Positions 31,526-33,735 of a stretch of DNA of 64,000 nt are shown here, piece by piece. The translations under genes and the position numbers were made by a program. Each line of letters opens with the position of its first letter. Position 1 is the first letter of the stretch. The stretch lies in the NCBI GenBank assembly GCA_964016885.1, contig OZ024743.1, positions 200,322,001-200,386,000 of the forward strand, read 5' to 3'. The notes below the pieces were generated by a model that was not told the DNA's origin, did no database searches, and saw only the letters and a program-made list of their open reading frames with translations. Origin of the DNA: Eledone cirrhosa (taxonomy: Eukaryota).

Positions 31526-32257
31526 TTTAAAAAATATATAAATAAATAAAGAAAGAAAGGAACGAAGGAAGAAAGGAAGAATGAGAAATCAGAGAAGAAT
31601 AAAGGAAAACCAATGATATGCACAAAGGAATGAAGTGAAAATAAATTTGGAAGAAAAAAAAACAAAAAGAATAAAGAATAGGCCAAAGAAAGAATGAGAA
31701 GAAAAGAGAAGAAATTTACAGAAAGAAAGGCATAAAGACAAAGAGATCTCTCCGGTCTCAGCAACGTAGACTATATATATACATATATTTAGCCGTCGAA
31801 ACGGCTTGAGCTCAGCCGTCGGGGTTTTACTTGTTCCTATATATATATATATATATATATTGTTATACTTTGGGAGGGTCATGTTGCCAATAAGAAACAC
31901 ACGCACCAGTTGCTTTCACTTCAATTTATTATATATTTATAAATTTATAAATTTACAAATCTACAAATTTATAAATTTCTGGTTGGTTGGTTGGTTCCAC
32001 AACCAGATAGTTGTTTATATATAGTCATAGTCCTTTCGTCACACACTCTGTAACCTCTTCAGTGACTGGGGATTCCTTTCTTTGTTTCTGTGCCTTTCCT
32101 TTCTTCTGTCCTACGCCATTTTGTTTCTGTGTGTGTGTTGTGTGCTCAGTTTGCGCATGCGCCACATCCGGGTGTCTGTGTGTGTTTGTGTTCATTTATC
32201 TATTTGTTTATTTATTTACATGTTATTGGTTGGTTGTTTGTTCTATGTGTGTGTGTG

Positions 32258-33034
32258 ATGAGAAATGTGTCCCGCATGTGCAACCCCGAAGAACTAGAGA
32301 GACACATACAACACTTCATCCACCGTATGCATATCAGAGTGTATAGAGGAGCCAGAACCAAATGGGAAAAAATGGTAAATAATGACATAAATGGGACCTG
32401 CCCCTTGTATAGGAGCAAATTTTGGAATAGAATAGAAAGAACTAGGAACAAGGCCAATAGAATAAACTCATGGTATGATAGCAATAAATACCAGAGTGTA
32501 ATGTTCATCGATACAACCCCTAGAGGCGAACTAGCCTACAAATTTAGAAGGGCCCTAAATAAACATAAACTCAATATTAAGATAGTAGAAAGACCAGGTA
32601 CCTCCGTAAAAACACTTATTAGCAAGACATACCCGTTCCAAAGACCCTCATGTATAGATAAGAAATGTATAACCTGTAAAATAAGCCCCCATATTAAGTG
32701 TAAAACTAGAAATGTAGTGTATAGCATAAGATGTACTGAAGGACAATGTAGAAACAAATATATAGTGTACATAGGTGAGACAGCTCGTAGTATAGGGGAA
32801 CGGATAAATGAACACTGGCGAGACCTTCAAGATAATAAAGAATCATCTGTACTCTACCAACATGCTAAGATAGAACACAAGGGTAAATTAGAGAACATAG
32901 AAATAAAAATAGAATCTACACACAGAAAAGATGCAATGTTTAGACAAATTACAGAGGCAATAAACATAAAAGAATTACAACCAAAATTAAATAGAAAATA
33001 TGAGTGGAACAGCAACATCACAACTTACAATTAA
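32258..33034 (+). CDS. C-terminal part (RT thumb/linker plus GIY-YIG endonuclease) of a Penelope-like element ORF, Naiad/Chlamys-like; 5'-truncated
   Basis: Open 258-aa frame with FIDTTPRGEL, VERPG, CxxxxCxxC, NVVYSIRC...YIGETARSIGERINEH, H..EH, RQITEA and LNRKYEW. The upstream part of the 32090 ORF is only the inverted arm. Clade call is by motif recall. Confidence 0.85.
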   Translation: MRNVSRMCNPEELERHIQHFIHRMHIRVYRGARTKWEKMVNNDINGTCPLYRSKFWNRIERTRNKANRINSWYDSNKYQSVMFIDTTPRGELAYKFRRALNKHKLNIKIVERPGTSVKTLISKTYPFQRPSCIDKKCITCKISPHIKCKTRNVVYSIRCTEGQCRNKYIVYIGETARSIGERINEHWRDLQDNKESSVLYQHAKIEHKGKLENIEIKIESTHRKDAMFRQITEAINIKELQPKLNRKYEWNSNITTYN

Positions 33035-33238
33035 GGACAAAATGAAAACACACACACACATAGAACAAACAACCAACCAATAACATGTAAATAAATAAAC
33101 AAATAGATAAATGAACACAAACACACACAGACACCCGGATGTGGCGCATGCGCAAACTGAGCACACAACACACACACAGAAACAAAATGGCGTAGGACAG
33201 AAGAAAGGAAAGGCACAGAAACAAAGAAAGGAATCCCC

Positions 33239-33283
33239 AGTCACTGAAGAGGTTACAGAGTGTGTGACGAAAGGACTATGACT
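33239..33283 (+). ncRNA. Type I hammerhead ribozyme in the PLE 3' arm (mirror copy 32023-32067, minus)
   Basis: AGTCA-CTGAAGA-G-GTTACA(GAGTG)TGTGAC-GAAA-GGAC-TA-TGACT. Confidence 0.8.
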
Positions 33284-33735
33284 ATATATAAACAACTATC
33301 TGGTTGTGGAACCAACCAACCAACCAGAAATTTATAAATTTGTAGATTTGTAAATTTATAAATTTATAAATATATAATAAATTGAAGTGAAAGCAACTGG
33401 TGCGTGTGTTTCTTATTGGCAACATGACCCTCCCAAAGTATAACAATATCGGTTTCAACACACGATTTCAGATAAAGAATCTTGCTAAACAAATTCAGAA
33501 ACGAAATATATATATATATATATATATATATATATATATATATATATATATATATATATATATATATATATATATATATATATATATATATATATATATA
33601 TATATATATATATATATATATATAATCTGAGTTTTTCGAATATTAATAATAATATTGGATTCGTTTGCAAACAGCCTCTTTAAAGCCATGTCAGTAGAAT
33701 GACCTCGTTATTGTTTGTTATTATTATATATATAT

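What the first reader, a model, noticed from the sequence alone, without database searches (positions are those of the whole stretch)
31857..33505. Young Naiad/Chlamys-like GIY-YIG Penelope element: candidate mobilizer
Seen: an uninterrupted 258-aa C-terminal ORF with GIY-YIG motifs, 401-bp inverted arms with no difference I could see, an HHR, a 56-nt tail and (TA)n flanks. This is the same geometry as the non-coding fold-backs and the array 3.4 kb away. Inference: full-length members of this or a sister family supply RT and endonuclease in trans. The RT core is absent from this copy.
Basis: partly seen in the sequence, partly recalled or inferred. Interest (0 to 1): 0.75.

Follow-up and report, generated by a model that had tools for sequence, protein, structure and literature searches.

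The report
Penelope family with telomerase-sized finger insert
This is a broken, mirror-armed copy of a young, abundant jumping gene whose full-length copies put the cutting enzyme last (so it is not a Naiad/Chlamys element) and carry an extra ~70-amino-acid piece in the copying enzyme at the spot where telomerase has its own insert, which likely marks an unnamed branch of Penelope-like elements; nothing ties it to the nearby ribozyme array.

Summary
In detail: identical 401-nt inverted arms, a 258-aa GIY-YIG-bearing frame, a minimal hammerhead motif, a 56-nt tail and (TA)n flanks. The copy lacks the RT core and has a private 27-nt deletion. The Naiad/Chlamys label is wrong: full-length genomic copies (1227-1229 aa, no in-frame TGA) run RT then C-terminal EN. 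The family is young (~1.4% from sister copies; 40,307 first-look candidates). The tail is the start of the next ORF; 24 of 27 two-ended insertions carry it on exactly one arm, fitting the published two-site RT initiation. The mobilizer idea is unsupported: the 312-nt array and five non-coding fold-back families share no sequence with this family, many other PLE families share the genome, and the array's tail motif leans toward Hydra-type elements (a lead). What stands out is the RT: motif A-B spacing is 128 aa (canonical PLEs 57-60, human TERT ~115), conserved in every measurable homologue, and these RTs group apart from Neptune-, Hydra- and Nematis-like RTs. I did not find this lineage in the papers searched; Repbase was unavailable. 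This scan noted the same insert (e1-9508900) and the one-tail rule before, on other DNA.

The parts
31838..31856 (.). (TA)n target, left; itself follows the 3' end of an unrelated short fold-back family (31790-31838)
31857..32257 (-). Inverted arm: 3' UTR/pseudo-LTR copy ending at RT-start site 1 (no tail)
   Evidence: 100% reverse complement of 33049-33449; shares a rare HHR stem-II variant with the other arm
32023..32067 (-). Minimal type I hammerhead motif, left arm
   Evidence: pattern scan; cleavage untested
32258..33034 (+). 5'-truncated ORF end: RT thumb, short Cys linker, GIY-YIG endonuclease with CCHH; private 27-nt in-frame deletion near 32331; joined to the inverted arm over a 3-nt microhomology (GTG)
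33049..33449 (+). 3' UTR / pseudo-LTR, up to RT-start site 1 (..ACAATAT)
   Evidence: precedes the full ORF in tandem copies L032, L033, L035, L037, L050
33239..33283 (+). Minimal type I hammerhead motif, right arm
33424..33507 (+). Start of the family ORF (MTLPKYNNIGFNTRFQ...), beginning inside the pLTR and running through the tail
   Evidence: L032 and L033 read 1229 and 1227 aa from this ATG; homologues begin with a similar F-D/N-T-R motif
33450..33505 (+). 56-nt tail between RT-start site 1 and site 2 (..GAAATAT)
33506..33624 (.). (TA)n target, right
33959..34035 (+). Separate insertion: 3' end of a sister family (~69% DNA identity in the ORF, same site 1, 44-nt tail in other copies)

Best explanation
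The stretch is a 5'-truncated copy, lacking the RT core, of a young high-copy Penelope-like retrotransposon whose full ORF has reverse transcriptase first and GIY-YIG endonuclease last, and whose RT carries a conserved ~70-80-residue insert at the telomerase IFD position that likely marks an unnamed PLE lineage. Shown: anatomy, intact relatives, one-tail rule, insert size and conservation. Inferred mechanism: a tandem pLTR-ORF RNA is bound near the ORF start; the protein nicks both strands of a (TA)n tract and primes two cDNAs, one at site 1 and one 56 nt downstream at site 2 (both AATAT^CG); one cDNA stopped after 401 nt, the other after ~1.25 kb, and the two were joined over a 3-nt microhomology. 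This copy cannot supply RT; intact copies elsewhere likely can, for their own family. Inferred: the insert is an independent gain at the IFD site that probably helps grip template/primer or target DNA; its predicted helical-loop fold is not shown to be homologous to TERT's.
For: 147 scored genomic hits, all 97-99% identical over 258 aa, 140 without stops, of 40,307 candidates. L032 and L033: 1229/1227 aa from the pLTR ATG with DKSG, motif A, B, YVDD, linker, EN in that order. 23 of 27 outward-facing end pairs in 60 loci classed cleanly as one site-1 plus one site-2 end; on inspection L036 also fits, L173 is an exception, L039 and L189 are disrupted. Same-locus arm pairs (inverted and tandem) median 97.2% vs 91.5% between loci; both window arms share a variant seen once elsewhere among the family HHR variants listed. 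Two-site internal RT initiation giving the tail is shown in vitro for an anole Poseidon (PMC11167929); pLTR/tail holding the first codons is described (PMC3846280). A-to-B spacing 128 aa; 124-133 in 38 measurable of 54 hits, 124-141 in 45 measurable of 147; 55-60 in in-genome Neptune/Hydra types and Nematis-like proteins. Insert has conserved E-LG-YL, CP-R-G-P-T, R-W residues and is confidently modelled (mean pLDDT 91); top fold matches are TERTs. With insert columns removed, 18 long-insert RTs form one side of a branch, SH-aLRT 99.
Against: The tree has no named reference sequences, no Poseidon, Coprina, Athena, Naiad or TERT, no root, and used a quick LG+G4 search; 3 of 41 rows were dropped for lack of a motif match. 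Neptune is paraphyletic in the published tree, so the lineage could sit inside a named group, or already be in Repbase/Dfam, which I could not see. Copies were chosen as best-scoring, so youth is overstated. Of 19 pLTR-ORF junctions read, only 2 reach the natural stop, and both have private substitutions; activity is untested. Twin priming is inferred from footprints; gene conversion could also make arms alike. The function of the insert is a guess.
Confidence: 0.8

Rival explanations
1. It is a Naiad/Chlamys element, possibly a selenoprotein.
For: (TA)n targeting, inverted arm and tail occur in Naiads; Naiads have an IFD and octopus Naiads are published.
Against: EN is C-terminal in full copies; DKS not DKA; HHR motif present; no in-frame TGA in L032/L033; the published Naiad_Ovul N-terminus is an EN and looks nothing like this ORF's (by eye).
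Confidence: 0.02
2. This family (or its sister) supplies RT/EN in trans to the 312-nt hammerhead array and the non-coding fold-backs in the window.
For: Same two-armed, one-tail, (TA)n geometry; the array family is young and dispersed, 100% identical units on several chromosomes; this family has intact ORFs; retrozyme mobilization by PLEs is proposed in print (PMC7229834; preprint).
Against: No BLAST match between this element and the array or fold-backs; local alignment z 1.9 and -1.3 for the two sister families; different tail length (33 vs 56 and 44 nt) and HHR style. The anole protein needs sequence in the first 172 nt of its own ORF. The array and a related retrozyme have AGAGCA in the tail, as Hydra-type elements of this genome do and this family does not (a post-hoc short motif). 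Fold-back 7056-8540 is the 3' end of another coding PLE.
Confidence: 0.15
3. The family is a divergent Nematis (or Neptune-grade) member with a lineage-specific insert, probably already deposited as a generic 'Penelope' in repeat libraries.
For: EN has the short CX4CxxC-x6-C linker and CCHH seen in Nematis; Octopus vulgaris libraries list 30 recently active 'Penelope' families without clade names (PMC13282606).
Against: Published Nematis RTs have ~60-aa spacing; the Nematis-like set forms its own starred group apart from the long-insert group; precomputed RVT_1/HTH_animal hits are common in the Nematis-like set and absent from the long-insert hits listed.
Confidence: 0.3
4. The inverted arm arose after or apart from integration (self-priming fold-back, or gene conversion between two insertions) rather than by two primings on one RNA.
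For: Self-priming on an antisense template was proposed for inverted Penelope structures (PMC3846280); L173 has two equal short tails.
Against: A fold-back of one cDNA would not give two different, fixed outer ends; 24 of 27 pairs have exactly one of each, with either arm carrying the tail.
Confidence: 0.12

Closest known systems
Nematis clade of C-terminal EN+ PLEs (PMC8557442; main text parts 1-7 and Figs S1, S2, S7 as text)
   Same: RT then GIY-YIG; short Cys linker; CCHH; IVERPG-type stretch before the linker
   Different: ~70-80 extra residues between RT motifs A and B; DKS for DKG; G-[AG]-x-I-G for AMG in motif B; ORF 1227-1229 aa; groups apart from Nematis-like RTs in my tree
Neptune clade (PMC8557442)
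   Same: C-terminal EN with CX2-5CxxC linker; (TA)n preference; pLTR with HHR
   Different: Neptune linker has ~25 residues between CxxC and the next C, here 6; A-B spacing 57-59 vs 128; separate branch from this genome's Neptune-type families
Naiad/Chlamys (PMC8557442)
   Same: Insert at the IFD position; (TA)n targets; inverted arm and tail
   Different: Opposite domain order; their IFD adds ~20-40 aa, here ~70-80; no DKA, no Sec codons; HHR present
Poseidon of Anolis carolinensis, PAc (PMC11167929, parts 1-2 of 4)
   Same: ORF starts in the pLTR; two RT start sites just inside the ORF give the tail; AT-rich target
   Different: Here both sites share AATAT^CG, which matches the (TA)n target, whereas PAc start sites were reported non-homologous to the cut DNA; tail 56 nt vs 30-40
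Telomerase RT (PDB 7trd, 6zd2, 9swn)
   Same: Best fold matches (Z 14-15.5, rmsd 3.7-4.7, 290-380 aligned); insert of similar size at the same place (human A-B ~115 aa, hand count from Fig S1)
   Different: 9-12% identity; the insert is predicted helix/loop, and homology to the TERT IFD was not shown
Adineta vaga Penelope families with N-rich inserts (PMC3846280, passages)
   Same: Long asparagine-rich in-frame stretch (56 N in 215 aa upstream of RT); pLTR holds first codons
   Different: Those are Penelope/Poseidon-group and low-copy

Membership tests
EN+ Penelope-like elements | RT whose nearest fold is telomerase RT | tested here: met
EN+ Penelope-like elements | GIY-YIG EN with R, H, E, N in the same ORF | tested here: met
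   motifs; Pfam GIY-YIG itself not detected
EN+ Penelope-like elements | pLTRs from partial tandems, inverted 5'-truncated copy, one-sided tail | tested here: met
EN+ Penelope-like elements | Type I HHR in the pLTR | tested here: met
   pattern and family conservation; cleavage not testable here
Naiad/Chlamys | EN N-terminal to RT | tested here: not met
   L032, L033
Naiad/Chlamys | DKA motif and CxC motif between EN and RT | tested here: not met
   TDKSG; no CxC seen upstream of RT by eye
Naiad/Chlamys | No canonical HHR | tested here: not met
   HHR motif present
Naiad/Chlamys | Insert at IFD position | tested here: met
   present but about three times the Naiad size
Naiad selenoproteins | In-frame UGA at conserved Cys plus SECIS | tested here: not met
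   2 of 2 complete ORFs have no in-frame TGA and end in TAA; no Rfam SECIS in the window; SECISearch3 not available
Nematis | C-terminal EN with short Cys linker and CCHH | tested here: met
Nematis | No IFD (A-B about 60 aa), DKG | tested here: not met
   128 aa, DKS
Nematis | Groups with named Nematis RTs | tested here: inconclusive
   apart from an unnamed Nematis-like set; named references could not be put in the tree
Neptune | Long CX2-5CxxC linker | tested here: not met
   6-residue spacer vs ~25 in Neptune
Neptune | Groups with Neptune RTs | tested here: inconclusive
   apart from 3 in-genome Neptune-type RTs; Neptune is paraphyletic in print
Hydra | CxCX5C linker, no CCHH, DKT, RWK | tested here: not met
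Penelope/Poseidon | No Cys linker before the EN | tested here: not met
   linker present

The most novel reading that the evidence does not exclude
This family belongs to an unnamed, widespread ninth clade of Penelope-like elements: C-terminal, Nematis-like EN joined to an RT with a conserved telomerase-sized fingers insert, found in octopus, a sea cucumber and hundreds of unassigned marine assemblies, missed by the Pfam RT profile, and recently active here in thousands of copies with intact ORFs. It would be the best natural system for asking what an IFD-position domain does outside telomerase.
Probability: 0.5. Interest if true: 0.68.

Novelty: new variant of a known kind. Interest (0 to 1): 0.48.

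Why it matters
The copy itself is ordinary. The family matters for two reasons. First, the current scheme (eight PLE clades) uses the IFD as a feature of N-terminal-EN elements and some Coprina; a large C-terminal-EN lineage with a longer, conserved insert at that position would change that picture and bear on how often the telomerase-type insert evolved. Second, a young family with intact ORFs, two fixed AATAT^CG start sites and a near-strict one-tail rule makes the two-site priming model, and the open question of which PLE mobilizes animal retrozymes, testable with purified protein.

Tried and rejected
Rfam at gathering score: no hit in the window. Pfam: nothing significant for the window ORF or the two full ORFs. 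PDB by sequence: only a low-complexity match. Single-sequence model of the insert region: pLDDT 39, not used. Partner for the array: no match to the 3' regions of 12 sampled Neptune/Hydra/Nematis-like loci beyond weak scores (best z 2.9 and 4.3, L114, likely HHR core); several 3' regions were cut short at microsatellites, so the partner is unresolved. Three fold-back families (28761-29117, 35632-36333, 33736-33900): no linked PLE ORF in 25 top loci each. L277 checked as a possible empty site: it is an independent insertion. Expression: no RNA holder listed, which is no evidence either way; contigs of four runs show the family's presence only and none spans this copy's junction. Literature: nine searches found no description of a C-terminal-EN PLE lineage with this insert; five short motifs of it were absent or unrelated in the Craig et al. 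supplement as held, whose long lines are cut. Arkhipova 2006, Repbase and Dfam were not seen and could hold it; bioRxiv supplements were closed.

Full report
Observation. The two arms (31857-32257, 33049-33449) are exact reverse complements over 401 nt. Between them, 32258-33031 reads 258 aa with a Cys linker and a GIY-YIG domain. A minimal type I hammerhead pattern sits in each arm; Rfam does not score it, its folding energy is unremarkable, and its core is conserved across family copies. The 56-nt tail and (TA)n flanks are as described. One addition: the frame has a 27-nt in-frame deletion that only this locus shows among the variants listed (sister copies align over 818 columns against 791).

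The family. A protein search of the own genome gave 40,307 first-look candidates; the 147 scored are 97-99% identical over the whole query and 140 have no stop. These are the best-scoring copies, so the median 1.4% DNA difference from the window copy (77 matches in 60 loci) is a lower bound on family age. I fetched 20 loci chosen for long frames or paired hits and 40 more from the ranked list. L032 and L033 read 1229 and 1227 aa from an ATG inside the upstream pLTR to a TAA, with no in-frame TGA; 17 other pLTR-ORF junctions stop early. Order of motifs: N-terminus, LPPKF, an N/T/H-rich stretch, TDKSG, motif A, motif B, YVDD, thumb, Cys linker, EN. The nearest named protein is an Octopus vulgaris prediction at 68%, so the host is likely an octopod.

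Not Naiad/Chlamys. Craig et al. (PMC8557442; main text parts 1-7 of 10 and supplement parts 1, 2, 5, 52-55, 58 read) define these by an N-terminal EN, DKA and CxC motifs and lack of canonical HHRs. Each is failed here. The selenoprotein check is negative.

How the insertion formed. The tail is the start of the next ORF: 33424-33507 encodes MTLPKYNNIGFNTRFQ..., which continues in tandem copies. This is described for rotifer Penelopes (PMC3846280, passages), and Frangieh et al. (PMC11167929, parts 1-2 of 4) show in vitro that RT starts at two sites inside the ORF, giving the tail. Here both sites read AATAT^CG. Of 60 wide loci, 27 hold two outward-facing ends; 23 classed cleanly as one site-1 and one site-2 end, L036 fits on inspection, L173 has two equal short tails, and L039 and L189 are disrupted. 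Either arm may carry the tail. Arms at one locus are more alike (median 97.2%, 41 pairs incl. tandem ones) than arms of different loci (91.5%, 4561 pairs), and both window arms share a rare HHR variant. The join has 3 nt of microhomology. I infer two primings on one RNA, one from each nicked strand. A sister family keeps site 1 but has a 44-nt tail, which suggests that site 2 falls where the RNA next matches (TA)n; that is an inference.

Mobilizer claim. The array at 36865-40651 is an HHR-bearing 312-nt unit in two opposed arms with a one-sided 33-nt tail, dispersed as 100%-identical units on several chromosomes: a non-LTR retrozyme as in PMC7229834 (passages) and the 2026 preprint (parts 1-2 of 5). 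It shares no detectable sequence with this family or its sister. The genome holds several Neptune-type families with long frames, at least 667 Hydra-type motif matches and a Nematis-like family whose 3' end is the fold-back at 7056-8540. The array and a related retrozyme have AGAGCA in the tail, like this genome's Hydra-type elements and unlike this family, and a U-U-closed stem II as in many Hydra HHRs, though a Neptune-type family also has that. This is a lead only. Three other fold-back families showed no linked PLE ORF in 25 loci each.

The unusual part. Motif A-to-B spacing is 128 aa. It is 124-133 in 38 measurable of 54 database hits and 124-141 in 45 measurable of 147 more; the library search counts 307 clusters at E<=1e-30 and 1939 at 1e-10, of which only the top 150 were seen. 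In-genome Neptune- and Hydra-type RTs and the Nematis-like set give 55-60. Hand counts from Fig. S1 give 58 for Penelope, 60 for Nematis, 57 for a fish Neptune, 81 for Naiad-Amil and 115 for human TERT. The alignment shows one block of about 80 columns present only in the long group, with several residues conserved in 70-98% of 60 sequences. The AlphaFold model is confident (mean pLDDT 91; insert helices and loops) and its best fold matches are TERTs; no residue-level comparison with the TERT IFD was possible. With the insert removed, 18 long-insert RTs form one side of a branch (SH-aLRT 99) apart from 3 Neptune-type, 2 Hydra-type and 15 Nematis-like rows (quick LG+G4 tree, 38 rows, 3 dropped, unrooted, no named references). 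The EN is Nematis-like. Named hosts among the hits are O. vulgaris and the sea cucumber Holothuria leucospilota; most are unnamed. Craig et al. state that the IFD marks N-terminal-EN elements and occurs sporadically in Coprina. My searches found no description of this lineage, but Repbase, Dfam and Arkhipova 2006 were not seen.

Earlier notes. I recorded the insert and clade idea before reading that this scan had noted it on another piece of this genome (e1-9508900); the one-tail rule was also noted in other genomes and a Hydra link for retrozymes in this one. These are unchecked AI notes and add no independent support.

Verdict. Real, correctly described, mislabelled; an ordinary dead copy of a family that is probably a new variant of PLE. 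Interest 0.48.

Noticed in passing
window 36865-40651: Two-armed array of a 312-nt hammerhead unit (retrozyme), one-sided 33-nt tail, (TA)n ends; 100%-identical units on several chromosomes; tail motif AGAGCA shared with Hydra-type PLEs of this genome.
   Followed up: partly
window 7056-8540; L125:1212-2867: Fold-back with two HHRs is the 3' end of a separate coding PLE family (551-aa RT fragment, Nematis-like homologues).
   Followed up: partly
window 33959-34035; L044:7600-8700; L112:7946-9160: 3' end of a sister family (~69% DNA identity) with the same ORF start and site 1 but a 44-nt tail; its 3' region showed no clear HHR core by eye.
   Followed up: partly
window 28761-29117, 35632-36333, 33736-33900 and 31790-31838, 18333-18620, 45402-45626, 53033-54261: Several unrelated short fold-back families, mostly in (TA)n; the three searched are dispersed (1099-3569 candidates) with no linked PLE ORF in 25 loci each.
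   Followed up: partly
L015:3432-3765; L082:2425-2900: A second retrozyme family, 67-77% like the array; the L015 copy is a single unit that begins and ends at the same site, as expected from a circular template.
   Followed up: no
L033:3353-7069, residues ~255-470: Asparagine/threonine-rich low-complexity stretch (56 N in 215 aa) upstream of the RT, recalling the N-rich inserts of Adineta Penelopes.
   Followed up: no
L042/L043 (C1:13322189-13336236): Two oppositely oriented copies about 10 kb apart with one site-1 and one site-2 end: possibly one insertion event spanning or capturing a long intervening stretch.
   Followed up: no
P0052: An Octopus vulgaris gene model fuses about 150 aa of this lineage's RT to an F-box/LRR protein; probably an annotation artefact.
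   Followed up: no
L219:7654-9798; L111; L113: Long open frames of Hydra-type (714 aa) and Neptune-type (938, 1096 aa) PLEs: several PLE clades appear recently active in this genome.
   Followed up: partly
window 30985-31525, 48280-49520, 50970-51310: Many copies of the common short interspersed repeat of octopus genomes (identity recalled, not tested).
   Followed up: no
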